Below, piece by piece: positions 3,030 to 14,264 of a stretch of 64,000 nt of DNA; within the stretch, counting starts at the first letter, position 1, and every line of letters starts with the position of its first letter. The stretch lies in contig CAISPD010000179.1 in NCBI GenBank assembly GCA_903887275.1, positions 16,912-80,911 of the forward strand. Direction: 5' to 3'. Position numbers and translations under genes: made by a program. Origin of the DNA: an uncultured Mucilaginibacter sp. (GTDB lineage: Bacteria > Bacteroidota > Bacteroidia > Sphingobacteriales > Sphingobacteriaceae). The notes under the pieces are model-generated. The model was not told the DNA's origin, searched no databases, and worked only from the letters and a program-made list of their open reading frames with translations.

Positions 3030-4350
3030 AGACCACCAACATATAGCCCGGATAAAAAAATACAACAGCGGCCAGCTGGACGTGCGCGCCATGCATCAAC
3101 TTGAGAGGGAAGCACTGGATGATCCATTCCTTGCAGATGCGCTTGAAGGATATCAATCGGCAGTTCCCGGGCAGGAGGCAAACCTTGCAGAGCTGCAGCA
3201 GCGCCTGCAATTGAGGGTTGAACCCAAAGTGCGACAAATGATCGCCTGGCGACAGTTGGCTATAGCAGCATCGATCCTGATCTTTTTTGGTATTTGTACA
3301 TGGTATTTCCTTCCCACCAAAAAAGGGAATACCCTACAGCTGGTTGAAAATATAAAGCCTGCAGCACAGGATAAGCAATCCATAACGCAAACGCCGGCTG
3401 CATCAACTGATGCTACTGATGCAAAGCCTTCGGCCAGTCAGTCAATGCCCAATAACACGGCATTTGCTCCAGCCCTGAAAGCTGAAAAAGGTTTAGCAGG
3501 AGACAAAAATATATCAACTGCTTATTCAAATCCGGTGCAGGCAGATACAGCAGTTTTAGGAGCTAAATCTGCAAGCCCTTTAAATACCGACGAACAATTA
3601 AAAAGCCCATCTTTTGCTGGCGTCGCTAATGCAAAATCAATTGATAAACAACAATCCACTGCATCATTGAACGAAGTGGAGGTAGCTCAGGCTGATGCCA
3701 GCGCCCGGAAAAAGGCTGTACCACAGGTTGCTGCACAATCAAATAAAGCATCCCGTCAGGAAACGCTAATACAAAGCAAAGTTGATGGTGTTGTTGTAAC
3801 ACCTGCAAATAAAACGCTCAGCGGCACCGTTACCGGCTTGAATGGCATGCCCCTGCCCGGTGCAGTTGTAAAACTGGCGGGCAGTAATTTTGGCGTAATA
3901 ACTGATGAGAAGGGTAGGTTTGTGATGCACGACGTGCCCGAAAAGGATAATATTACGGTTGGATACATTGGGTATAGTCAGAAACAGATCAGGGTAAATG
4001 GCGAAGATTCGGTCAATGTATCCCTGTCGCCTGCTTCGCATGCTAACGACTTGCGCAATACTGGTTCTATGGACTCCCATAGTACTACGGATGCACATCC
4101 CAGCGCTGGCTGGAAAGCACTTGAAAATTACCTTGCAAAAAACGCCAGCTCAGCTGATGGCCAAACCGGAAAGGTTAATCTTTCATTCTCAGTTGATGCT
4201 CAGGGGAATCTCAGTAATTTTAAAATTCTCAAAAGCCTGAGCAATGCAGCAGATCAAAAAGCCATAGACCTGCTGGTTCATGGACCTGGTTGGATAGGTA
4301 ATGCCGATAGCAAGGTGCATGAAGTTAAGCTAACGGTAGAGTTCAGATAG
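3022..4350 (+). CDS. Putative anti-sigma factor (N-terminal helical domain, single TM, carboxypeptidase-regulatory-like domain, TonB C-terminal-like domain)
   Basis: GTG start overlaps sigma stop; LEREALDDPFLADALEG; TM LAIAASILIFFGICTWYF; LSGTVTG..PLPGAVV; C-terminal GKVNLSFSVDAQG. Confidence 0.7.
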   Translation: MRKDHQHIARIKKYNSGQLDVRAMHQLEREALDDPFLADALEGYQSAVPGQEANLAELQQRLQLRVEPKVRQMIAWRQLAIAASILIFFGICTWYFLPTKKGNTLQLVENIKPAAQDKQSITQTPAASTDATDAKPSASQSMPNNTAFAPALKAEKGLAGDKNISTAYSNPVQADTAVLGAKSASPLNTDEQLKSPSFAGVANAKSIDKQQSTASLNEVEVAQADASARKKAVPQVAAQSNKASRQETLIQSKVDGVVVTPANKTLSGTVTGLNGMPLPGAVVKLAGSNFGVITDEKGRFVMHDVPEKDNITVGYIGYSQKQIRVNGEDSVNVSLSPASHANDLRNTGSMDSHSTTDAHPSAGWKALENYLAKNASSADGQTGKVNLSFSVDAQGNLSNFKILKSLSNAADQKAIDLLVHGPGWIGNADSKVHEVKLTVEFR

Positions 4351-4415
4351 CGGAATCTGGTATTGTCTTAACCTGGCAACAGTTGTTAAAACCTTAAAAT
4401 GGTACAGCGATCTTA

Positions 4416-5423
4416 TTAAACCAGGCGCAATAGCGCGAAAACGCCAGCAGCTATTAATGCTGAAACCGGGATGGTTATTATCCATGCCCAGATCAGGTTA
4501 ACAGTAACACCCCAGCGTACTGCCGATAAGCGCTTGGTTAGCCCGACACCGATAATAGATCCAGTAATGGTATGTGTAGTAGATACCGGAATGCCAAAGT
4601 ATTGCGTAAAAAATAAGGTGATCGCACCGGCAGTTTCGGCACTAACACCTTCCAGCGGTGTTATTTTGGTAATTCGCGAGCCCATGGTTTTAACAATTTT
4701 CCAACCACCAGATAAAGTACCAAGGGCAATAGCTGAATAGCAGGCCAACGGTATCCAGTTAGGCATCATGGCACCAGAGCCAATCACTTTTGCAGCAATA
4801 AGAGCAACGTAAATAATACCCATTACTTTTTGAGCATCATTGCCACCGTGTGCGTAGCTAAGCAGGGCCGATGATACTAATTGCATGCGTTTAAACCATT
4901 TCTCGGCGGTTGCAGGTCGCGAGTTTTTACTGAGGTGAAGCACTATTATAGTAACGATATAAGCTACTATGAGCCCTATAAGCGGGGCCAATACGATATA
5001 GGCGATGGTGGTAAGCACTAGTTTTAAATTGATAGCCGTTATACCATTAGCGCCCATATAGATAGCGTTGGTGATACCTGCACCAGCAAAGCCACCAATA
5101 AGGGTATGTGACGAACTGGAAGGAATACCAAACCACCAGGTGATCAGATTCCAGGTAATTGCTGCTATTAATCCGGCTAATAGTACATGCAGGGTTACAA
5201 AATGCTCGTTAACGATTTTTGATACGGTTTTGGCTACATTATGCTCTTTAACAAAAAAGAAAACAATAAAGTTGAAGGTTGCAGCCCAAAGAACCGCCTG
5301 AAAAGGTGTAAGTACCTTAGTTGAAACAATGGTTGCTATAGAGTTTGCCGCATCATGAAAACCATTGGTATAATCAAACAATAGTGCCAGGCAAATTACG
5401 AGTACGAGGGTGCTTGTTACCAT
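4416..5423 (-). CDS. pit: PiT-family inorganic phosphate transporter
   Basis: Both PiT signatures GFHDAANS and GGNDAQK; PVSTTH. Confidence 0.93.
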   Translation of the reverse strand: MVTSTLVLVICLALLFDYTNGFHDAANSIATIVSTKVLTPFQAVLWAATFNFIVFFFVKEHNVAKTVSKIVNEHFVTLHVLLAGLIAAITWNLITWWFGIPSSSSHTLIGGFAGAGITNAIYMGANGITAINLKLVLTTIAYIVLAPLIGLIVAYIVTIIVLHLSKNSRPATAEKWFKRMQLVSSALLSYAHGGNDAQKVMGIIYVALIAAKVIGSGAMMPNWIPLACYSAIALGTLSGGWKIVKTMGSRITKITPLEGVSAETAGAITLFFTQYFGIPVSTTHTITGSIIGVGLTKRLSAVRWGVTVNLIWAWIITIPVSALIAAGVFALLRLV

Positions 5424-5432
5424 GAAATCAGA

Positions 5433-6083
5433 TCAGGCGTTTTTAACTAAAATTGACTCCATTACATTTGCTGCATCTTCGCAACGGTCGGTTGCAGTTT
5501 CAAGCGCGGCATAGATTTCTTTGTATTTGATCAGCCTGATGGCGTCCGTCTCATACAAAAACAAGTCGGCTACGGCACGATCAAAAACATAGTCGGCCTG
5601 GTTTTCTACGCTGTTGATGCGAATACATGAATCAGCGATAGCACGTACGTTTCTGATATCCTTTAGCTCGCGGATGGCTTTTTCCAGGTCGAGGCTGGCC
5701 TGTAATATCAATTCTGATAATTTGCGAATATGCTCGTTTAGGTCGTCGATGCGGTAAAGCAGCATGCGGTTGGCTGCGCCCTGAATATTATCTGCAACAT
5801 CATCAATAGCTGTTGCCAGTGCGTGAATATCTTCGCGGTCAAACGGAGTGATAAAATTTTTCCCAAGTTCAAGGTATATCTGATGGGTAATTTCGTCGCC
5901 TTTATTCTCCAGTTTGTCAATGTGTTTATAAAGCTCTTCACGCGTTCCGGCGTTAGTTGAATTAACGGCATCAACCAAGCTTGTGGCCATCACAACTACA
6001 TTGTTTGATGCTTGTTCAAACAAAGGAAAAAATATTTTTTTGTCCTTAGGTACAAAATACTGGAAGATGCTATTCAGTGACAT
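5433..6083 (-). CDS. DUF47 (PhoU-like) phosphate transport regulator
   Basis: LENKGDEITH, TPFDREDI, LETATDRCEDAANV; directly upstream of pit. Confidence 0.9.
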   Translation of the reverse strand: MSLNSIFQYFVPKDKKIFFPLFEQASNNVVVMATSLVDAVNSTNAGTREELYKHIDKLENKGDEITHQIYLELGKNFITPFDREDIHALATAIDDVADNIQGAANRMLLYRIDDLNEHIRKLSELILQASLDLEKAIRELKDIRNVRAIADSCIRINSVENQADYVFDRAVADLFLYETDAIRLIKYKEIYAALETATDRCEDAANVMESILVKNA

Positions 6084-6130
6084 AATTGAAAAATGGAAGG
6101 TCGGTTAATATTCCGTTTGTTAAATTTTTG

Positions 6131-6166
6131 CAAAGTTAATGTTTCCAATGTTAAGTTAATGTTAAC
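6131..6166 (-). promoter_or_regulatory. DUF47-pit promoter with tandem TTAACAT (11-bp period) box
   Basis: Minus strand GTTAACATTAACTTAACATTG (6166-6146), 7 nt gap, then -7 element TAACTTTG (6138-6131). Confidence 0.65.
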
Positions 6167-7226
6167 TCTTTAACACCGGAATAGGCGGGAATGGTATTCC
6201 TTGTTTAGCTTTTTGCAGCGTAAATCCGAAGGTTGAGCCCAGTCCCTCGGTGCTGCGTACATTAATAGTTTGCTGATGTGCTTCAATAATATGTTTAACG
6301 ATGGCAAGCCCAAGTCCGGAGCCGCCGATCTGTCTTGAACGGCTGGTGTCAGTTCTGAAAAAGCGTTCAAAAAGGCGGGGAAGGTATTTTTCTTCAATTC
6401 CGATACCATCATCCGTCACCTCTACTAAAACCTGATCATGCAGTTCAAACAAACTTACCGACGTATTGCCTTCTTCTTTTCCGTATTTGAACGAATTGTC
6501 GATCAGATTGACCAATACCTGCCGGATTTTTTCCCTGTCGGCATTTACCAGGATAGGTTCATCATATTTTTGTTTGAAAACCAATTTGATATGGTGGTCC
6601 GCTGCCTTCATTTCCAGCGATTCAAACACCTCTTTGATCAGGTCATTGATCTTAAATTTGGTATAGTTAACAGGGATCTCGCCGGTTTCCAGCTTCGATA
6701 TTTCATCCAGGTCTTTAATCAGGTAACTTAGCCTGTCAACGTTTTTAGATGCTTTATCCAAAAACTGCCTTGCCATATCGGTATCTTCAAAATCATCATC
6801 TACTATCGCATCGATATAGCCCTGAATAGCGAAGAGTGGCGTTTTAAATTCGTGGGAAATATTAGAAAGAAAATCCCGCCTGAATTTTTCCTGTTTGCGC
6901 AGATCGTCAATTTCTGTCTTTTTTTGTCTGGCCCATTCAGTTACTTCCTGCTGCACGTCATTAATTGGGTCGGCACTAACTTGCTCACCCAGGGCATCGC
7001 GCAGGTCGCGGCCCAGTTTAAGGTTATGGATCAACTTATAAATTATTTTGATCTTGGAGTAGATATACTTTTCGAGCAGCACATAAAAAGTAACAAAACT
7101 AATAGCGAGCGTTATAAAAAAGGTAACGCCAACATCATACCAGCTATGCTTAAAATAAAAATTTACTGCTGAAACCGTAATCGCTACGGCTGCCGCGTTT
7201 ATAAATACCAGGACCCGTAATTTCAT
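6162..7226 (-). CDS. PhoR-like sensor histidine kinase (no adjacent response regulator)
   Basis: Two N-terminal TMs, H-box SHEFKTP, N/G1/G2 boxes (NLIDN, DDGIGI, GSGLGL); ATG 7226 chosen within track ORF 6162..7253. Confidence 0.88.
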   Translation of the reverse strand: MKLRVLVFINAAAVAITVSAVNFYFKHSWYDVGVTFFITLAISFVTFYVLLEKYIYSKIKIIYKLIHNLKLGRDLRDALGEQVSADPINDVQQEVTEWARQKKTEIDDLRKQEKFRRDFLSNISHEFKTPLFAIQGYIDAIVDDDFEDTDMARQFLDKASKNVDRLSYLIKDLDEISKLETGEIPVNYTKFKINDLIKEVFESLEMKAADHHIKLVFKQKYDEPILVNADREKIRQVLVNLIDNSFKYGKEEGNTSVSLFELHDQVLVEVTDDGIGIEEKYLPRLFERFFRTDTSRSRQIGGSGLGLAIVKHIIEAHQQTINVRSTEGLGSTFGFTLQKAKQGIPFPPIPVLKS

Positions 7227-7326
7227 AACCGTAAAGTTACGATTTGCAGGCAATTACAGCTCAAACAAAGCCTTTGCTAATATTAAATTATGGTTAATTA
7301 TTTACAGGGCCGAACAGGCCTGACCC

Positions 7327-7864
7327 TCACCGGGTGGTTGTAAGGTCTATTGCAATGGTAACAGTGTTTGACATCACCAGGCTATGGCCCCCCAACCCCG
7401 TAATCGGTTCGTTCAATTTGAAATTCACCTTTAAACTCGCTGATCGAGCCGGTTTCAGTATAAGTAAAAGGTATAGTAACGGTATTGGTTTTGTCTTTGA
7501 TCGTCAGGCTGAAAGTGCCGGAGTACTTATTGCCACCAAGATGTTTGATCGCAATAGATTTTATGGAGATCGATGGATATTTGCTAACGTCAAAATAGCT
7601 ATCACTTTTCAGATGGTCGTTACGTGTACCATTATCGGTATCTATCGTATTGGTTTCAACCGATGCTGTTATTGTACTGCCTGCAAGATTAGTTGGATCG
7701 AATTTAATGTCGCCTTTAAATCCGGCAAGCGTACCATCAACGGTGATGCCCAGATTTTTTATATGAAACACTACAGATGATTTGGTTACCGCCTGAGATT
7801 TAACCTGCGCAAAGCAAAAAGCATTGAATAATACAAGAAGTAATACCGGCAATAACTTTTTCAT
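7327..7864 (-). pseudogene. yceI: YceI-family protein, frameshifted near the C-terminus (G6 tract 7388-7393)
   Basis: Track ORF ends DYGVGGP*; removing one G gives DYGVGGHSLVMSNTVTIAIDLTTTR* ending 7327, which looks like the expected final beta strand. Confidence 0.75.
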
Positions 7865-7973
7865 CAGCTAAATATAATTAAGCAATTTGGTAATATGACG
7901 AAAATGCGCCCGGATTATTACAAAATGCCCGGAAATTAAATTGTATTATAATTGAAAATAAAAAGCTTAAAAG

Positions 7974-9284
7974 TCAGAACTCCACGTGCGCCCGCAAACC
8001 AAATACATTTACTGGTCCACGGTCTGCATTATAAGCCGGATGAAGGATAAACTGGTAATCGGGAGAAAGCCAGATTTTTTTCTGGAAGGCGTTGATCTTG
8101 TAATAGAGCTCGGCTATAAGTTCCGTCGAGTAATTAAGCTGACCGTCGCCAATAATAAAACCATAGCCGCCTGCCGCCAGATAAGCTCTGTGATCTGCTG
8201 AAAGTCCGTTGGCTATAAATGCAAGTCCCAATTCGTCGTCCGCCCGTTTCCAGGAGTTGCCTTTAAGCACAGCGCCGAACGAAAAAGAACGGTCAATCTC
8301 GGTAAAAAACCAGGTTTCCGTATGTCCATCGTTATAACTTGCTTTTGCGAAAACACCGAAGTCTCTGCTGAGGTATTGCTCAGCATTTATTCCAAATCCA
8401 TATTTATGCCTGCCGTAGTGCTGCGTGCTGTCAATATCAGGTGCCGAAGGATTTTGCGCCAATGCCAATTTGTAATTACCAAACTTGCCATTGTTCAGAA
8501 AGGTAAGTATCCTGAAAGCGCCTTTATTGCCGCCTATAATATATCGCTTTTCAAACTCGAGTGTTTGGGTATTGGCATCGGCTATTTTGGCATCCCAAAC
8601 AGATTGATTGGCCTGGGTTGTAACGAGGGTTAGTGCAAAACGTAATGTCCAGTCGGGCTGTCCAAGTTCGGCGGTTGCGCCAAGAACGTAACCACGGGTA
8701 TTGGCAGGGTAGTCCCAGGCCCCATTGTCCATTAATGCCCAATTCATGAATTGGCTTCGCGGATCGTGACTCAGGCTATTGTTGTCGAAAAAGTCGGCCA
8801 TGCCAAACTTGCCGATCACGAGCGAGAAGTACCGTTTGCTTTTTAGCCCGGCGAGTTGATTGATATCATCCTCGATCGTGTCTTTTTCGGTACCCCATTC
8901 AAAGGTTTGTTTAAAGTAAAGACGTGCAATGTAGATCTTGTTCTGTACTCCGCCTACCCTGAAAGTTTCACCATTCGGAAATCCGGCTACACCCAGCGTT
9001 TGACTTAAACCTGCGCCGCCCGAGATCTCCGGATTAAAATAGGCTTCGGCACCTTTCCATAGTCGTGTGCCGCCAAAAAGTGTAGAAGTGATAGACGATT
9101 GTGTTTCATCTTTTACAGATAAGCTGTTTTTACCCGAATACGGAGCAATTATTGCAGGCTTATATTGGGTTATTATGGTTTGCTGAAAATGAAGGTTGCT
9201 GCGCTGGTGCTTTAAGGTATCCTGGGCAATTACGCAGTTCAATAAGGCAATCAGAAGTATAAATGTAAAAGTATATTTTTTCAT
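7974..9284 (-). CDS. OprB-like (carbohydrate porin family) outer-membrane beta-barrel
   Basis: Signal peptide; GAWDYPANTRGY; C-terminal NADRGPVNVFGLRAHVEF ending in Phe. Confidence 0.75.
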   Translation of the reverse strand: MKKYTFTFILLIALLNCVIAQDTLKHQRSNLHFQQTIITQYKPAIIAPYSGKNSLSVKDETQSSITSTLFGGTRLWKGAEAYFNPEISGGAGLSQTLGVAGFPNGETFRVGGVQNKIYIARLYFKQTFEWGTEKDTIEDDINQLAGLKSKRYFSLVIGKFGMADFFDNNSLSHDPRSQFMNWALMDNGAWDYPANTRGYVLGATAELGQPDWTLRFALTLVTTQANQSVWDAKIADANTQTLEFEKRYIIGGNKGAFRILTFLNNGKFGNYKLALAQNPSAPDIDSTQHYGRHKYGFGINAEQYLSRDFGVFAKASYNDGHTETWFFTEIDRSFSFGAVLKGNSWKRADDELGLAFIANGLSADHRAYLAAGGYGFIIGDGQLNYSTELIAELYYKINAFQKKIWLSPDYQFILHPAYNADRGPVNVFGLRAHVEF

Positions 9285-9293
9285 AAAACGATG

Positions 9294-9328
9294 TAAAAGT
9301 AGTCTGGCAACATTAAGTTGATGTTAAC
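9294..9328 (-). promoter_or_regulatory. Porin internal promoter with the same 21-bp box as DUF47-pit
   Basis: Minus GTTAACATCAACTTAATGTTG (9328-9308; 18/21 identical to the pit box), 6 nt gap, then TACTTTTA (-7-like). Confidence 0.5.
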
Positions 9329-9403
9329 GGGCAATAGGTAAGGTTGATGCCGGACCCGATGAACAGACTGCAAACTTACGGCTTGCCCGGGATTACGAAT
9401 GTC

Positions 9404-12121
9404 TTAAAGCCACTGATCAAATTTTTTAATGAACCACGTTTTAACTGCCTGTGTAAGCAAACAATAACACAGCAAAATACCTAGCAGCCAGGGGAAAAAA
9501 GCAAAAGGCAAGGCTTGCATTTTAAAGGCTGCAGCCAGCGGCGAAAACGGTATGAAAATGCCAATGGCCATAATTGCCGATGTTAAAGCAACTACGGGCG
9601 CCGTAGCCCAGCTTTGTATAAATGGTATTTTACGGGTGCGGATCATATGAACGATCAATGTTTGGGATAGCAAGCTTTCTACAAACCAGCCTGTTTGGAA
9701 AAAGGTTTGATGTTCGGGCGAATTTGCTTTGAATATGAACCACATCACTGCAAATGTTGCATAGTCAAATACCGAACTGATGGGGCCAACAAACATCATA
9801 AATTTGCTGATACCCCCTGCGTCCCATTTGCGGGGTGTAACAATATAATCCTCGTCCATAAAATCCCATGGGATGGATATCTGCGACACATCATATAAAA
9901 GGTTATTGATCAGGATCTGTATCGGAAGCATAGGTAAAAATGGCAGCAAAGCACTGGCCCCCAGCATACTGAACATATTGCCAAAATTACTGCTGGCGGT
10001 CATTTTGATGTATTTGATGATATTGCCGAATGTGCGGCGGCCATAGATCACTCCTTTACGCAGTACCATCAGATCTTTTTCAAGCAGAATTATATCAGCG
10101 CTTTCTTTGGCAATATCGACTGCTGTATCTACCGAAATACCCACGTCAGCATCCCGTAGCGCTGCCGCATCATTAATTCCATCGCCCATAAATCCTACGG
10201 TATGCCCTTTAGCCTGCAATACTTTTACAACCCGCGATTTTTGCAAGGGACTGAGTTTTGCCAGAATACTGATATCGTCTATCCGGCGGGCCAATTCTTC
10301 ATCACTCATGTCTTCCAGCTCCTTGCCCAGCAGGATATTGTTAATCGGTATGCCTACATCCTTGCATATCTTTTTGGTTACAACCTCGTTATCGCCGGTT
10401 AAAACTTTAATTGAAATGCCCAGGCGGCGCAATGCCTCAATGGAAGGTTTAGCAGAGGGCTTAGCCGGATCTAAAAAGCCAATAAAGCCAGTCAGGATCA
10501 TATTGCATTCATCAGCAACTGAATAGTTTAACGGGCGCTCTTCATATTCCTTAATAGCCACAATCAGCACCCGCAAACCTTCCTCATTTAATTTAGACGA
10601 TGTTTTCAAAATGGCCTGCCGCATCTTTTCATCCATCGGGATCACGTCGTCGGTGTCTATCTGCAAACTATTATCCTCGCCCGGATCAAAAGCAAAGCTG
10701 CATAGGTCCAGCATTTCTTCTACCGCACCTTTACAAATAAGCAGGTGTTTGTGATTTTTTTCTTCCAATATCACCGACATTCGCCTGCGTTGAAAATCGA
10801 AGGGGATCTCATCTACTTTTTTATAGGATTCGCCTTCCTTCAGGCAGGAGTGAAACTCGACATGCTCCAATACAGCAAGGTCAAGCAAATTTTTTAAGCC
10901 GGTTTGGTGATAGCTATTGAGGTAGGCCCATTTCATTACTTCGCTATCTTCCAGGCCATATACGTTCAAATGCCGTTCGAGTACAATTTTGTCCATCGTT
11001 AACGTGCCCGTTTTATCGGTACACAGTATGTCCATCGCACCGATATTCTGAATAGCATTCAGCCTTTTGACAACAACCTTGCGTTTCGACATGTTAACCG
11101 CTCCTTTAGCCAGGTTGGCGGTTACAATCATTGGCAACATTTCGGGAGTTAGTCCAACGGCGATGGAGATACCGAAAAGAAATGCCTCCAGCCAATTGTG
11201 TTTGGTAAGCCCGTTGATCAAAAACACCAGCGGCACCATAACCAGCATAAAGCGTATGAGTAACCAGCTTACACTATTAACGCCTTTATCAAAACTGGTT
11301 TCGGCCCGTTTGCCAACCAATGATTTGGAAAGAGAACCAAAATAGGTATCGCCACCAGTATTTACGACAATAGCCTGCGCTGTACCACTTACCACGTTGG
11401 TGCCCATAAAGCAAACATTATTGAGTTCAAGGGGCGATTTTTTGCTAGCGCCACGATCAGCAGAATCTGTTTTTTCAACCGGTAATGCTTCGCCGGTCAA
11501 TATTGCCTGGCTTACAAATAAGTCTTTTGACTGAAGGATACGGACATCCGCTGGGATCATATCTCCGGCCGACAATAAAATAAGGTCGCCGGAAACTAAT
11601 TTTTTGATATCGATCTCCTGTTTATCCTGCCCTTCCCTTACCACAGTAGCGGTAGTTTTAACCATCGACTTCAGCTTTTCTGCAGCCTGGTTACTCCTGA
11701 ATTCCTGGATAAAACGCAGCATGGCACTTAAGAACACCATGATGCTGATTACAATAACCGTAGTATAATCCCTATCGGCAGGTGCTTTAATAATGATTAC
11801 GTCAGTAATGGAAGAAATAACGGCCAGTACGATCAATACCCCAATAAAAGGGTTTAAAAAGGCTTCAAAAAACTGGATATACCATTTAGGTGCTTTTTCA
11901 TGGGCTACTTCATTGGGCCCATAGGTGCTCAATCTTTCCCTGACTTCATCTGCTGTAAGACCTTTATCGCTGGTTTCTAACTGTTGCAGAAAATCTGCTT
12001 TACTACTCGCTGATGCTCGTTTTATCTTTAACGTTGAAGCGCCGTCAGATTCATTGGATGAATTGCCGTTCTTTTTGGCCAGAGTTTTATAAACTGAATT
12101 GAAATTTTCTCTTTTAAGCAT
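9404..12121 (-). CDS. mgtA: Mg2+-importing P-type ATPase
   Basis: DKTGT, TGEA, PEMLP, GDGINDA; MTASSNFGNMFS and NLLYD typical of MgtA/B. Confidence 0.95.
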   Translation of the reverse strand: MLKRENFNSVYKTLAKKNGNSSNESDGASTLKIKRASASSKADFLQQLETSDKGLTADEVRERLSTYGPNEVAHEKAPKWYIQFFEAFLNPFIGVLIVLAVISSITDVIIIKAPADRDYTTVIVISIMVFLSAMLRFIQEFRSNQAAEKLKSMVKTTATVVREGQDKQEIDIKKLVSGDLILLSAGDMIPADVRILQSKDLFVSQAILTGEALPVEKTDSADRGASKKSPLELNNVCFMGTNVVSGTAQAIVVNTGGDTYFGSLSKSLVGKRAETSFDKGVNSVSWLLIRFMLVMVPLVFLINGLTKHNWLEAFLFGISIAVGLTPEMLPMIVTANLAKGAVNMSKRKVVVKRLNAIQNIGAMDILCTDKTGTLTMDKIVLERHLNVYGLEDSEVMKWAYLNSYHQTGLKNLLDLAVLEHVEFHSCLKEGESYKKVDEIPFDFQRRRMSVILEEKNHKHLLICKGAVEEMLDLCSFAFDPGEDNSLQIDTDDVIPMDEKMRQAILKTSSKLNEEGLRVLIVAIKEYEERPLNYSVADECNMILTGFIGFLDPAKPSAKPSIEALRRLGISIKVLTGDNEVVTKKICKDVGIPINNILLGKELEDMSDEELARRIDDISILAKLSPLQKSRVVKVLQAKGHTVGFMGDGINDAAALRDADVGISVDTAVDIAKESADIILLEKDLMVLRKGVIYGRRTFGNIIKYIKMTASSNFGNMFSMLGASALLPFLPMLPIQILINNLLYDVSQISIPWDFMDEDYIVTPRKWDAGGISKFMMFVGPISSVFDYATFAVMWFIFKANSPEHQTFFQTGWFVESLLSQTLIVHMIRTRKIPFIQSWATAPVVALTSAIMAIGIFIPFSPLAAAFKMQALPFAFFPWLLGILLCYCLLTQAVKTWFIKKFDQWL

Positions 12122-12173
12122 CGTAGTATGATTTGCCCTGTTTTACCAGGCGGCTTAAAAGCAGACGATCCGG

Positions 12174-12224
12174 TTAGCAGGAGGTTAGAAGTTCTTTTAA
12201 AGTGCTACTCGGACCGGTATCCAT
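12174..12224 (-). CDS. Candidate mgtA leader peptide MDTGPSSTLKELLTSC (16 aa)
   Basis: ATG 12224 after an A-rich context, TAA 12176-12174; lies between the promoter and mgtA ATG. Confidence 0.5.
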   Translation of the reverse strand: MDTGPSSTLKELLTSC

Positions 12225-12246
12225 TTTTTTAATTTTTAATTTGACG

Positions 12247-12284
12247 CAAAAATAAGATTTAATTTAATGCAATGGTATTGCATT
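12247..12284 (-). promoter_or_regulatory. mgtA promoter (-7 TATTTTTG 12254-12247) with overlapping perfect palindrome AATGCAAT-GGT-ATTGCATT (12266-12284)
   Basis: Directly visible 8-3-8 inverted repeat over the -33 region. Confidence 0.6.
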
Positions 12285-12716
12285 GATCCTGCATTTGTCA
12301 CATATTCCTTTTACCACCAATTTCATTTCGGCAGCAGAGAAACCGGCAGGTAATAAAACCTCCGGGATTCTTGAATTTGGCAGACAGAATGTCTCTTTGC
12401 AAGTGCCGCAATAAAAGTGTACATGCAGGTCGTGATGCTCCTTTTTATCGCATTCCTCAGGGCATAGCGCGTACTTGGGTACACCCGTTCCGTCTTCTAT
12501 GGTATGAATCAGGCCGTTTTGCTCAAAGGTCTTTAACGTGCGATAAATGGTTGTACGATCTGCAGGCAGTAATAATTTCTCCAGATCACTCAGGCTAAGA
12601 GCATGCTGATGTTTTAAAAGCTTGTCTAAAACCAAAACCCGCATTGCGGTAGGGTTAATTTTTTTGATGGCCAGCAATTGCGTCGTTTTACCGCTTATTT
12701 TTTCCGCTATGTCCAT
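12264..12716 (-). CDS. Fur-family transcriptional regulator
   Basis: DRTTIYRTLKTF HTH, HxHFYCxxC and CDKC metal sites; ATG 12716 (track GTG 12719). Confidence 0.88.
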   Translation of the reverse strand: MDIAEKISGKTTQLLAIKKINPTAMRVLVLDKLLKHQHALSLSDLEKLLLPADRTTIYRTLKTFEQNGLIHTIEDGTGVPKYALCPEECDKKEHHDLHVHFYCGTCKETFCLPNSRIPEVLLPAGFSAAEMKLVVKGICDKCRINAIPLH

Positions 12717-12717
12717 C

Positions 12718-12749
12718 ACCGTATTACCATTGCTTTCGGGGCAAATCTA
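12718..12749 (-). promoter_or_regulatory. Fur-like gene promoter (-7 TAGATTTG) with a degenerate copy of the palindrome
   Basis: Minus AAAGCAATGGTAATACGGT (12736-12718), 14/19 match to the mgtA palindrome, just downstream of the -7 element at 12749-12742. Confidence 0.5.
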
Positions 12750-13400
12750 GGGTAAATTATCTACTTCATCATAAAACTGCTTAAGATACAGTTCCATAAA
12801 ATGGTGCCGCTGTTCGGCAAGAATTTTGCCGGTTGGGGTATTCATCTTATCTTTTAATAAGAGTAATTTTTCATAAAAATGATTGATACTGGGCGCTTGA
12901 GATGATTTATACACCTCTTTGCTCATATTTAAATTAGGGCTGATCTCGGGGTTATAAATTTCGCGCCCTTTAAATCCTCCATAACTAAATGCCCTTGCTA
13001 TCCCAATAGCACCAATGGCATCCAGCCGGTCAGCATCCTGCACAATAGCTAATTCATTTGATTGAAAACTAATCTTATCAAAGCCCGATTTAAAAGATAT
13101 ATTTCTGATGATCTGCTGAACATGCTCAATGATCTCGGGTGCAATAGCCATTGATGTTAAAAATTCTCCAGCCAACGCCGGTCCCAGTGTTTCATCTCCA
13201 CCGTGAAACTTACTGTCGGCAATGTCGTGCAGTAAAGCAGCCAGTTCAACAACCAGTAGATCACAAGGCTCTGATTTGGCTATGTGCCGGGCATTGGTTA
13301 AAACCCGCTGTATGTGCCACCAATCATGCCCACCTTCGGCATGCTGTAATGTTGCCTTAACAAAAGAGACTGCTTTACTGATGATTTCGTTGTGTTCCAT
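12747..13400 (-). CDS. HD-domain phosphohydrolase (YedJ-like)
   Basis: GHDWWHI, ALLHDIAD, QDADRLDAIGAIGIAR, NHFYEKL. Confidence 0.9.
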   Translation of the reverse strand: MEHNEIISKAVSFVKATLQHAEGGHDWWHIQRVLTNARHIAKSEPCDLLVVELAALLHDIADSKFHGGDETLGPALAGEFLTSMAIAPEIIEHVQQIIRNISFKSGFDKISFQSNELAIVQDADRLDAIGAIGIARAFSYGGFKGREIYNPEISPNLNMSKEVYKSSQAPSINHFYEKLLLLKDKMNTPTGKILAEQRHHFMELYLKQFYDEVDNLP

Positions 13401-13445
13401 ACGGCTATAAAATTAGATGTATTATAGCTGTATTGCATAACTTCA

Positions 13446-13694
13446 TTACACTTTTTGCAGAACCTGCATCCGTTCAGCACCGATCAGCAGGACTGGATCA
13501 GTCTCGAGAATTTCTGCAATATGCAGTAGTCTTTCAACGGTTATGCGAGTATATCCCAATTCGATCTTACTATAGGCATTTTGCGATATGCGCAATTTGG
13601 CTGCCAGGTATTCCTGGGTATAATTCCGGTGTTCCCGGGTTTTTCTGATGTTAGCAGCTACTTGTTCGATCCTGGTATTAAGTGCATCCTTCAT
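13446..13694 (-). CDS. XRE-family HTH regulator
   Basis: YTQEYLAAKLRISQNAYSKIELG; ATG 13694 within track ORF. Confidence 0.85.
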   Translation of the reverse strand: MKDALNTRIEQVAANIRKTREHRNYTQEYLAAKLRISQNAYSKIELGYTRITVERLLHIAEILETDPVLLIGAERMQVLQKV

Positions 13695-13769
13695 AATTGA
13701 AATGTTTAACTGGGTATTTAAGATCAATTACGCAAGGAAGCGCTATACGGTTTGTTTTTGCAGTATTAT

Positions 13770-14264
13770 TTATGGTTCGTTGCTGTAAACTAAGGTTACT
13801 GCGGGCAATAAAGTGGCAAGGTTAAGCGGGATTTGATCAGTACCGGTAATAGGTTTGTGCTTTAAATAAAAGTTGTACAACGCCGCCTGATCGTCTTTGC
13901 TGTCAGCACCCTTGCCATGAAACCTGATCTGGAAAGGGATGACAAAATCGTGTAATTTTTCTTTATCAGGAATGATCCACTTATGATTGGTCTTTTTCAT
14001 GGCATCAATAACAGGTTGTACCAGGATGGCATCATCAGCGTAGTAGATCACCAGATTTTTCAGGCTACCCTGATCATCGGCAGAAAACTTGAATATTACC
14101 AGGCCATTTGCTTTACTAAGTATTATGCCCTGCGAAACCTTTAAGCTATCGCGAAAAAATTGAGTCATTGCTGTTTTGCCTCCCTGAAATGGGAAAGCAA
14201 GCTGCTGTTGAGCGACAGCATGGGTTGCCATAAAAAGTGTAGCTATTAATAAGATTTTTCTCAT
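13770..14264 (-). CDS. Exported hypothetical protein, TonB C-terminal-like
   Basis: Signal peptide MRKILLIATLFMATHAVA; FPFQGGKTAM...GLVIFKFSADDQG. Confidence 0.6.
   Translation of the reverse strand: MRKILLIATLFMATHAVAQQQLAFPFQGGKTAMTQFFRDSLKVSQGIILSKANGLVIFKFSADDQGSLKNLVIYYADDAILVQPVIDAMKKTNHKWIIPDKEKLHDFVIPFQIRFHGKGADSKDDQAALYNFYLKHKPITGTDQIPLNLATLLPAVTLVYSNEP

What the first reader, a model, noticed from the sequence alone, without database searches (positions are those of the whole stretch)
4416..12749. Co-oriented Mg2+/phosphate homeostasis cluster with layered control
Seen: seven consecutive minus-strand genes, Fur-like - mgtA - OprB-like porin - yceI - PhoR-like kinase - DUF47 - pit, carrying three distinct cis-signals (palindrome, uORF, tandem box). 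Known: PiT proteins move metal-phosphate complexes, and Mg2+ limitation triggers phosphate-starvation signalling in enterobacteria. Inference: a coordinated Mg-Pi module with a dedicated outer-membrane channel; I do not know of this being described for Bacteroidota.
Basis: partly seen in the sequence, partly recalled or inferred. Interest (0 to 1): 0.65.

Follow-up and report, generated by a model that had tools for sequence, protein, structure and literature searches.

The report
Mosaic metal and phosphate transport gene array
The seven genes are real, but they form a lineage-specific line-up of separately controlled units (magnesium pump, cation porin, phosphate sensor and transporter) rather than one magnesium-phosphate operon; the only predicted link is a phosphate-starvation control site in front of the porin.

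Summary
The window is from a Mucilaginibacter genome assembled from a metagenome. All seven genes and all three cis-signals are real, and the signals are conserved.

**Not one module.**
- Among 76 distinct related porin loci, 46 read HD-porin with no mgtA and no Fur-like gene.
- Nine read Fur-porin; four loci lacking an intact mgtA keep remnants of its leader or 5' end.
- Seven carry Fur-mgtA-porin, and only three carry the whole array.

**Four separate control systems are predicted.**
- A Fur-family regulator with a TGCAAT-N3-ATTGCA operator. In Pedobacter the same cassette precedes a Zn/Cd-type efflux ATPase.
- A 15-17-codon uORF leader that travels with mgtA.
- A TTAACAT-N4-TTAACAT direct repeat: perfect before DUF47-pit, also before an orphan PhoB-like regulator and the pst operon. 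It is probably the Pho box.
- In relatives, but not here, an MntR-type operator before the porin.

**What links the halves.**
- The OprB-family porin sits next to mgtA in 3 of 5 other Bacteroidia genomes with an mgtA ortholog, each from a different family. This suggests a divalent-cation channel like MnoP.
- A Pho-like box sits in promoter position before the porin here and in 11 relatives. This is the only predicted metal-phosphate cross-talk.

All regulation is inferred; there are no expression data. First readers of this scan had already noted mgtA-porin arrays in other genomes.

The parts
12747..13400 (-). HD-domain phosphohydrolase. It is the conserved upstream anchor of the locus, and its stop codon overlaps a -7-type box TAGATTTG (12742-12749) that could drive the Fur-like gene.
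   Evidence: Pfam HD and NCBIfam PRK10119-like. HD is directly upstream of the porin in 46 of 76 related loci. Sequence read.
12264..12719 (-). Fur-family regulator gene. It has an HHDxH motif and two CxxC pairs. In this genome the frame runs through its own downstream operator, because the stop codon used in relatives is absent.
   Evidence: Pfam FUR 31.9 bits against a cut-off of 23.1. Translation. Relatives end 6 codons earlier, with the palindrome non-coding. 596 homologues, named 'Fur family' where a source names them.
12266..12284 (-). Inverted repeat with core TGCAAT-N3-ATTGCA (12268-12282): the probable operator of the Fur-like protein. It lies just upstream of the mgtA -7 box TATTTTTG (12247-12254).
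   Evidence: Conserved 0-6 nt after the Fur-like stop in 17/17 loci. Also present before a Zn/Cd-type P1B ATPase in Pedobacter ginsengisoli and in a JGI contig. Only three exact copies in the 3.9-Mb genome.
12174..12224 (-). 16-codon upstream ORF (MDTGPS...) in the mgtA leader. Its GGTCCG segment can pair with CCGGA just after the uORF stop.
   Evidence: 14 distinct leaders all start MDTGPS, are 15-17 codons long, and vary synonymously at codon 3. Single-sequence folds give two alternative pairings. RNAalifold found no clean consensus. No Rfam match.
9404..12121 (-). mgtA, a magnesium-importing P-type ATPase (type IIIB).
   Evidence: TIGR01524 1288 bits and NF011702 1351 bits, both above their cut-offs. 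DKTGT, TGD and GDGIND motifs present.
9294..9327 (-). Porin promoter P2. It consists of a Pho-like box TTAACATCAACTTAATGT (9310-9327), 8 nt, then a -7-like TACTTTTA (9294-9301). A second -7 box, TAAGTTTG, lies at 9371-9378 just after the mgtA stop.
   Evidence: The geometry matches the DUF47-pit promoter. A box with at most 2 mismatches sits at -40 to -60 in 12 of 76 related loci, while the flanks have diverged.
7974..9284 (-). OprB-family outer-membrane porin: candidate divalent-cation channel.
   Evidence: Pfam OprB 141 bits. The AlphaFold model (pLDDT 67, pTM 0.71) best matches P. putida OprB 4GEY, E 4e-17. Neighbours in relatives are mgtA, an MntR-type operator, or Czc-like RND pumps.
7327..7864 (-). 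yceI-family gene, broken by a frameshift in the G-run at 7388-7393. The annotated frame stops at 7382; the conserved tail continues in another frame to 7327.
   Evidence: Pfam YceI 103 bits. The tail in the other frame aligns with the C-termini of eight relatives.
6162..7253 (-). Orphan PhoR-like histidine kinase (probable ATG at 7226). It has two transmembrane helices joined by a ~6-residue loop and no PAS domain. A weak half-conserved box lies at 7280-7297.
   Evidence: It is the best match in its genome to the Bacteroides PhoR model core. 80-94% identical across the genus. Adjacent to DUF47-pit in Sphingobacteriaceae only. Box.
6131..6165 (-). Perfect TTAACAT-N4-TTAACAT box (6148-6165, overlapping the kinase stop codon), 9 nt, then a -7 box TAACTTTG (6131-6138): the promoter of DUF47-pit.
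   Evidence: 20/20 genus loci are perfect. 15 of 18 loci from other genera and families have 0-1 mismatch.
5433..6083 (-). DUF47/PhoU_div protein (PitR-like accessory protein of Pit).
   Evidence: Pfam PF01865 90 bits. Paired with pit in 30/30 class-wide loci.
4416..5423 (-). Pit (PiT/PHO4 family) phosphate transporter; the only PHO4 gene in the genome.
   Evidence: Pfam PHO4 300 bits. Single copy. Both signature motifs present (GFHDAAN and GGNDAQK).

Best explanation
The array is a lineage-specific juxtaposition of independently promoted units. It lies on a Mucilaginibacter backbone that normally reads HD-porin-yceI-kinase-DUF47-pit.

**Unit 1: Fur-like gene and mgtA.**
- A metal-sensing Fur-family protein binds the 15-bp palindrome at the mgtA promoter.
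- A short leader ORF beginning MDTGPS adds translation-coupled control.
- This cassette was inserted between HD and the porin in one subclade, and mgtA was later lost repeatedly.

**Unit 2: the OprB-family porin.**
- It is a divalent-cation channel that serves inner-membrane importers such as MgtA.
- In relatives it has two promoters: P1 under an MntR-type operator and P2 under a Pho-like box.
- In this genome only P2 remains, together with possible read-through from mgtA.

**Unit 3: the Sphingobacteriaceae phosphate module.**
- A PAS-less PhoR-like kinase signals to an unlinked orphan PhoB-like regulator.
- That regulator binds TTAACAT-N4-TTAACAT at DUF47-pit, at the pst operon, at its own gene and at porin P2.
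- Phosphate starvation would therefore raise the cation porin together with Pit, a metal-phosphate symporter.
- mgtA would answer to metal status alone.

**Shown:** gene identities, synteny patterns, and conservation and position of the motifs.
**Inferred:** which protein binds which motif, the direction of regulation, and the porin's substrate.
For: **Synteny.**
- Of 76 distinct genus loci, 46 read HD-porin, 9 Fur-porin, 7 Fur-mgtA-porin and 4 mgtA-porin elsewhere. Only 3 hold the full array.
- Remnants of the mgtA leader or 5' end persist in loci lacking an intact mgtA: L101, L116, L119 and L135.
- In the porin tree, the Fur/mgtA-bearing loci form one derived subclade.

**Porin and mgtA.**
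- 3 of 5 class-level mgtA orthologs have the porin adjacent, in three different families.
- The pairing also occurs in Hanamia L177 and in second loci of the genus.

**MntR-type operator.**
- TTTAGAC-N2-GTCTAAA lies about 22 nt before mntR-mntH in the own genome and in 4 of 5 complete relatives.
- The same palindrome lies before the porin in 23 of 76 loci.

**Pho box.**
- Perfect at DUF47-pit in 20/20 genus loci.
- At a conserved position before the orphan PhoB-like regulator in 29 genomes, and in tandem before the 454-aa-ORF-pstSCAB-phoU operon.
- The porin box shows the same box-to-(-7) geometry in 12 loci.

**Kinase and regulator.** They are the best PhoR-like and PhoB-like genes in the genome, and both are orphans.

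**Fur cassette.** It is shared with a Zn/Cd-type P1B ATPase in Pedobacter.

**Precedent.** The C-terminal domain of the manganese channel MnoP is OprB-type (PMC4827864). OprB-domain porins of Anabaena affect manganese and zinc tolerance (PMC9705863).
Against:
- The porin box has 2 mismatches. Sites of that quality are no more frequent genome-wide than control patterns: 83 against 47-113. Its weight therefore rests on position and on conservation among loci that are related by descent.
- The box was not found near pstS or canonical phoB in the few loci from other families that were examined. Its assignment to PhoB is firm only within the genus.
- The porin also sits beside unrelated genes in many Bacteroidota.
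- The metal sensed by the Fur-like protein is unknown.
Confidence: 0.62

Rival explanations
1. The seven genes form one coordinated Mg-Pi regulon that responds jointly to magnesium and phosphate status. The porin is its dedicated channel for magnesium-phosphate, and the three cis-signals are layers of a single control scheme.
For: - The genes are co-oriented, and no strong terminators were found between mgtA and the porin.
- The same box type occurs before the porin, the kinase (weakly) and DUF47-pit.
- Pit family proteins carry metal-phosphate complexes (established knowledge).
- The full array recurs in L051 and L107.
Against: - The full array occurs in only 3 of 76 loci.
- mgtA and the Fur-like gene are absent from most loci, and mgtA has been lost repeatedly.
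- Fur-mgtA-porin occurs without kinase-DUF47-pit in L081, L112, L122 and L145.
- mgtA has no Pho-like box: the best match has 4 mismatches.
- There is no Fur-type or MntR-type palindrome near the kinase or pit.
- DUF47-pit carries its box class-wide, irrespective of mgtA or the porin.
Confidence: 0.13
2. The arrangement is pure neighbourhood inheritance with no functional coupling. The porin is a general or sugar porin, its Pho-like box is a chance AT-rich match, and the closeness of mgtA and pit is an accident of one insertion.
For: - Two-mismatch matches to the box are as common as matches to control patterns.
- The 12 loci that share the porin box belong to one subclade.
- Pfam names the family 'carbohydrate-selective', and the best structural match is the glucose porin OprB.
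- Most distant porin homologues have unrelated neighbours.
Against: - mgtA-porin adjacency recurs in at least four separate lineages.
- An MntR-type operator is conserved before the porin in 23 loci and also appears in distant orders: L153, L170 and L162.
- The porin box keeps its distance to the -7 element while the flanking sequence diverges.
- Czc-like metal efflux pumps lie next to the porin in 5-7 distant loci.
Confidence: 0.2

Closest known systems
Enterobacterial mgtA control (PhoP box plus the mgtL leader peptide)
   Same: - A P-type Mg2+ importer is preceded by a short leader ORF containing an acidic residue and a proline.
- The leader has alternative RNA pairings.
- Transcription is also controlled at the promoter.
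- In sister loci of the genus the promoter even carries direct repeats next to a kinase gene.
   Different: - In this window the promoter element is a Fur-family palindrome, not a PhoP box.
- The peptide (MDTGPS...) shares no sequence with MgtL and has one proline.
- No ribosome-stalling or attenuation mechanism has been tested.
MnoP of Bradyrhizobium japonicum, the outer-membrane Mn2+ channel co-regulated with mntH
   Same: - Both are OprB-type beta-barrels (PMC4827864).
- Both are genetically tied to an inner-membrane divalent-cation importer.
- In relatives the porin lies behind the same operator as mntR-mntH.
   Different: - MnoP is a 675-residue fusion with an N-terminal BRP domain and is controlled by Mur.
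- This protein is a 436-residue single domain and has lost the MntR-type operator in this genome.
- It sits after mgtA with a Pho-like box.
- Its substrate is untested.
PhoR-PhoB with PstSCAB-PhoU, and the PitR(DUF47)-Pit pair
   Same: - The kinase core resembles PhoR.
- The regulator is an OmpR/PhoB family member.
- The box is a 7+4+7 direct repeat at the -33 position, like the E. coli Pho box.
- DUF47 precedes pit, as in Bacillus, Staphylococcus and Sinorhizobium.
   Different: - The kinase and regulator genes are unlinked from each other and from pst.
- The kinase lacks the PAS domain through which E. coli PhoR is thought to read PhoU.
- The kinase is glued to DUF47-pit in Sphingobacteriaceae only.
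- The half-site is TTAACAT rather than CTGTCAT.
Fur/Zur-family regulators placed next to metal-transport ATPases
   Same: - The winged-helix and metal-site residues are present.
- The operator is a 15-bp palindrome of the 7-1-7 kind overlapping a promoter.
- The same regulator-operator cassette precedes a Zn/Cd P1B ATPase in Pedobacter.
   Different: - Here the downstream pump is an importer of the MgtA type.
- No Fur-family protein is known to me that controls mgtA or senses magnesium.
- The metal and the direction of control are unknown.

Membership tests
MgtA (P-type ATPase IIIB, magnesium import) | Score above the curated equivalog cut-off, plus the phosphorylation motif DKTGT and the TGD and GDGxND motifs | tested here: met
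   TIGR01524 scores 1287.6 against 610.75. DKTGT at 369, TGD at 575, GDGIND at 646.
OprB porin family (PF04966) | Pfam gathering score and an OprB-like 16-stranded barrel | tested here: met
   141 bits against 22.9. The model's best PDB match is OprB 4GEY, E 4e-17, TM 0.64-0.66. The model is only moderate (pLDDT 67).
OprB porin family (PF04966) | Carbohydrate selectivity | not testable with these tools
MnoP-like divalent-cation channel | Co-regulation with an inner-membrane divalent-cation importer | tested here: inconclusive
   It is adjacent to mgtA here and in four other lineages. In 23 relatives it shares an operator with mntR-mntH, but not in this genome. These are predictions only.
PhoR (phosphate regulon sensor kinase) | Score above the PhoR equivalog cut-offs and a TM-TM-PAS-DHp-CA architecture | tested here: not met
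   TIGR02966 scores 233 against 334. The Bacteroides PhoR model scores 167 against 500, matching only its core. No PAS domain. It may still work like PhoR: it is the best such kinase in the genome.
PhoR (phosphate regulon sensor kinase) | Genetic linkage to phosphate transport and to a PhoB partner | tested here: inconclusive
   It is adjacent to DUF47-pit in 4 Sphingobacteriaceae genera. The partner is inferred to be the orphan PhoB-like regulator on contig C62.
PitR/DUF47-Pit pair | A PF01865 gene immediately upstream of a PF01384 gene on the same strand | tested here: met
   The gap is 9 nt. Both pass the Pfam cut-offs. The pair is conserved in 30/30 loci.
Fur family (PF01475) | Pfam gathering score, an HHDxH-type metal site and CxxC pairs | tested here: met
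   31.9 bits against 23.1. EHHDLH, CGTC and CDKC are seen. No NCBIfam equivalog (Fur, Zur, PerR) is reached, so the metal specificity is open.
Pho box (PhoB binding site) | Direct 7-nt repeats at 11-bp phasing in place of the upstream promoter element of Pho-regulon genes | tested here: inconclusive
   The architecture and position are met before pst, the PhoB-like gene and DUF47-pit in the genus. There is no genome-wide enrichment. It was not seen near pstS or phoB in a few loci from other families. Binding is untested.

The most novel reading that the evidence does not exclude
The OprB-family porin is a regulated outer-membrane gate for divalent cations in Bacteroidota. It integrates two inputs at tandem promoters: metal limitation through an MntR-type operator or mgtA co-transcription, and phosphate limitation through a PhoB-type box. 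It thereby supplies both MgtA and the metal-phosphate symporter Pit. Alongside it, a Fur-family regulator has been recruited from a Zn/Cd efflux pump to control a magnesium importer, which may make it the first Fur-type sensor acting on mgtA.
Probability: 0.3. Interest if true: 0.65.

Novelty: new variant of a known kind. Interest (0 to 1): 0.45.

Why it matters
How Gram-negative bacteria move magnesium and other divalent cations across the outer membrane is poorly defined outside one rhizobial manganese channel. In Bacteroidota the control of mgtA and the Pho regulon signals are largely uncharted. This locus and its relatives offer three things:
- a testable candidate cation porin;
- a candidate Pho box for Sphingobacteriaceae that is widely conserved before DUF47-pit in Bacteroidia;
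- a natural experiment in which the same mgtA leader is combined with either a two-component promoter or a Fur-family promoter.

It also shows that the attractive idea of a hard-wired Mg-Pi operon does not hold as stated.

Tried and rejected
- **Rfam scan of 4000-14000 at E<=1:** no match, so no known riboswitch or leader family.
- **Sigma-70 and terminator scan:** at background level and not suited to Bacteroidota promoters. I read TAnnTTTG boxes by eye instead.
- **RNAalifold on 12 mgtA leaders:** only a weak consensus, because indels break the alignment. Single-sequence folds suggest alternative pairings but prove nothing.
- **Genome-wide count of the box:** no enrichment over reversed, re-spaced or shuffled patterns. 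I therefore do not count the hits before a phosphoesterase and a CHAD gene as evidence.
- **The claimed 14/19 second copy of the palindrome before the Fur-like gene (12718-12736):** not conserved in relatives, so it is probably chance.
- **Class-level check of the box near pstS and near Bacteroidales-type phoB:** nothing found, but there were few loci and the flanks were short.
- **PDB sequence search with the porin:** no match.
- **Sequencing-run look-up for expression data:** tool unavailable.
- **Second MgtA-like ATPase on contig C201:** 42% identical, and it has no such leader.

Full report
**What is there**

The window lies in a 3.9-Mb, 99%-complete genome assembled from a metagenome. Named relatives place it in Mucilaginibacter, family Sphingobacteriaceae. 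The seven minus-strand ORFs exist as described, and family scans support the names.
- Pit: PHO4, 300 bits.
- DUF47/PhoU_div: 90 bits.
- A HisKA-HATPase kinase.
- YceI.
- An OprB-family porin: 141 bits.
- MgtA: TIGR01524 scores 1288 bits against a cut-off of 611, with DKTGT at residue 369.
- A weak but valid Fur-family protein: 31.9 bits against 23.1.

The kinase scores best against PnpS and PhoR models but stays below every cut-off. It has two transmembrane helices joined by about six residues and no PAS domain.

Three corrections apply.
- The co-oriented run continues through an HD phosphohydrolase, an XRE-type gene and two more genes to 15444, so seven is not a natural boundary.
- yceI is frameshifted in a G-run at 7388-7393. 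The conserved C-terminus continues in another frame.
- The gaps between genes are 78-142 nt, apart from the 9-nt gap between DUF47 and pit.

**Synteny**

I fetched 20-kb stretches around the porin gene from 36 places in related genomes. I fetched a further 80 loci from the species-level genome collection, then mapped the window's proteins onto all of them.

Among 76 distinct loci with a porin at least 65% identical:
- 46 read HD-porin directly;
- 9 read Fur-porin without mgtA;
- 7 read HD-Fur-mgtA-porin;
- 4 hold an mgtA-porin pair at a different place;
- 10 are cut off or different upstream.

Only the window, L051 and L107 carry the whole seven-gene array. Four Fur-mgtA-porin loci (L081, L112, L122, L145) have no kinase-DUF47-pit within 7-10 kb downstream.

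Four loci that lack an intact mgtA keep recognisable remnants of the mgtA leader or of its first codons (L101, L116, L119, L135). mgtA was therefore lost repeatedly.

In a porin tree, the basal Mucilaginibacter clades have the plain HD-porin-...-pit form. All loci with the Fur-like gene, mgtA or the operators fall in one derived subclade. The tree is from FastTree, midpoint-rooted, with no topology test.

Outside Sphingobacteriaceae the roughly 50%-identical porin homologues mostly have other neighbours.
- Seven loci hold an AcrB-type RND pump, five of them together with a CusB-type fusion protein.
- About five loci hold two-component systems.
- A few hold mgtA.

In two Pedobacter species the porin stands alone.

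**The two pairs that hold up**

*DUF47-pit.* The pair is universal in 30 of 30 loci sampled across class Bacteroidia. The kinase precedes it only in the own family: 3 of 3 other genera, and none of 26 loci from other families.

*mgtA and the porin.* MgtA orthologs are rare in the class: 5 of 150 sampled genomes. Three of those five, each in a different family, have an OprB-family gene directly beside mgtA. So do Hanamia (L177) and second loci of several Mucilaginibacter genomes. This recurrence supports a functional tie between pump and porin. First readers of this scan had noted similar arrays in other genomes; I treat those notes as leads only.

**Cis-signal 1: the palindrome**

The core TGCAAT-N3-ATTGCA follows the Fur-like stop codon within 0-6 nt in all 17 loci that have the gene. 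It is non-coding there. Only in the window does the reading frame run through it, so its conservation is not a coding constraint.

It lies a dozen or so bases upstream of a -7-type box. It has the 15-bp span of Fur-family operators. It occurs exactly only three times in the genome.

Homologues 64% identical, in Pedobacter ginsengisoli and in a JGI contig, are followed by the same palindrome and promoter. There the downstream gene is a Zn/Cd-type P1B ATPase (TIGR01512, 486-492 bits), in one case next to a Czc-like pump.

The regulator-operator cassette is thus portable, and it is older than its association with mgtA.

**Cis-signal 2: the uORF**

Fourteen distinct mgtA leaders from both locus types begin with the same ATG and encode MDTGPS. 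A variable tail follows, giving 15-17 codons in all. Codon 3 varies synonymously.

A GGTCCG segment inside the uORF can pair with a CCGGA-like segment just past its stop. Alternatively, that downstream segment pairs further on. RNAalifold gave no clean consensus, and Rfam has no match.

In the other locus type the same leader sits behind four TTCTAAT direct repeats that follow a kinase gene. The leader therefore travels with mgtA, while the promoter-level regulator was exchanged.

An earlier follow-up note of this scan describes a similar short acidic, proline-containing leader peptide before magnesium transporters in other phyla. I did not test that link.

**Cis-signal 3: the tandem box**

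TTAACAT-N4-TTAACAT is perfect before DUF47-pit in 20 of 20 genus loci. It has 0-1 mismatch in 15 of 18 loci from other genera and families. It always lies a few bases upstream of a TAnnTTTG box.

Within the genus a related array sits at a fixed position before an orphan OmpR-family regulator in 29 genomes. That regulator's best family matches are PhoB models, 233 and 221 bits, both below their cut-offs. Tandem copies also lie before an operon made of a 454-residue unknown protein followed by pstSCAB-phoU.

That regulator and the window's kinase are the best PhoB-like and PhoR-like genes in the genome, and both lack a partner next door. I therefore read the box as the Pho box of this lineage.

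Caveats:
- Two-mismatch matches are no more frequent than control patterns genome-wide.
- I found no box near pstS or canonical phoB in the few loci from other families that I examined.

**The porin promoter**

In the derived subclade the region before the porin has two parts.

*The upstream part (P1).* It is the palindrome TTTAGAC-N2-GTCTAAA next to a TAGATTTG box.
- The same palindrome lies about 22 nt before a DtxR/MntR-family gene followed by an Nramp gene.
- This holds in the own genome and in four of five complete relatives.
- It is therefore most likely the MntR operator.
- It precedes the porin in 23 of 76 loci, and it appears before porin homologues in three distant Bacteroidota.

*The downstream part (P2).* It is a Pho-like box followed by a -7-like element, at -40 to -60 from the start codon. 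It has at most two mismatches in 12 loci, including the window.

The window lacks the MntR-type part. It keeps P2 (9294-9327) and a further -7 box just after mgtA.

**What the porin probably is**

The modelled fold matches the glucose porin OprB best. The gene context, however, points to divalent cations: mgtA, an MntR-type operator, and Czc-like pumps.

There is precedent.
- The C-terminal domain of the manganese channel MnoP is OprB-type (PMC4827864).
- Mutants of OprB-domain porins in Anabaena change manganese and zinc tolerance (PMC9705863).
- I found no paper in the searched library describing an mgtA-linked porin in Bacteroidota.

**Verdict**

- There is a recurrent outer-membrane partner for mgtA.
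- That porin shares a phosphate-type control element with Pit.
- The seven genes are nonetheless not one module. mgtA and its Fur-type regulator are an optional insert. The kinase-DUF47-pit trio is a family-specific phosphate unit. Each unit has its own predicted regulator.

All regulatory assignments are inferences from conserved position. No expression data could be consulted.

Noticed in passing
window 7327-7864: yceI is interrupted by a frameshift in a run of six G (7388-7393). The last ~20 residues, conserved in eight relatives, continue in another frame. This could be a homopolymer assembly error in the metagenome-assembled genome or a true pseudogene.
   Followed up: partly
window 12264-12284: The Fur-like ORF is 6 codons longer than in relatives because the usual stop codon is missing, so the conserved operator is translated here.
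   Followed up: yes
L052 about 8880-8960; also L053, L054, L070, L180: In the second type of mgtA-porin locus, a small ORF for a hydrophobic peptide of about 25 residues lies between mgtA and the porin. This recalls small membrane regulators of Mg2+ pumps such as MgtS or MgtR. It is absent from the window.
   Followed up: no
L052-L054, L070, L180, upstream of the mgtA leader: Four TTCTAA(T/G) direct repeats at about 10-11-bp phasing lie directly after a histidine-kinase gene and before the mgtA promoter. This is PhoP-box-like, two-component control of the paralogous mgtA.
   Followed up: partly
G000 contig C105:14952-17240 (loci L187, L218): The pst operon is led by a 454-residue ORF with no Pfam or NCBIfam match (possibly an outer-membrane protein). 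It is transcribed divergently from a second DUF47 paralog (41% identical). The shared intergenic region holds Pho-like boxes.
   Followed up: partly
G000 contig C193:3747-6292 (locus L232): An mntR (DtxR family with a FeoA domain) is followed by an Nramp transporter fused to a universal-stress-protein domain (632 residues). It lies behind the TTTAGA(C/T)-N2-GTCTAAA palindrome and is divergent from an Lrp/AsnC regulator.
   Followed up: partly
L250-L277 (class Bacteroidia DUF47-pit loci): The TTAACAT-N4-TTAACAT box before DUF47-pit is kept with 0-1 mismatch in 15 of 18 loci from many families. That is unusually strong conservation for a regulatory site across a class.
   Followed up: partly
L281:1311-9515: A 1455-residue fusion of an RND pump (ACR_tran) with an outer-membrane factor (OEP) domain, plus a CzcB-like gene, precedes the Fur-like gene and a Zn/Cd-type P1B ATPase.
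   Followed up: no
L112 and L145, upstream of the Fur-like gene: Here the MntR-type palindrome and promoter lie before the Fur-like gene, and mgtA and the porin are only 23 nt apart. The whole Fur-mgtA-porin unit may therefore be under manganese-type control.
   Followed up: no
window 13446-13727: A small XRE-family helix-turn-helix gene lies upstream of the HD gene on the same strand.
   Followed up: no
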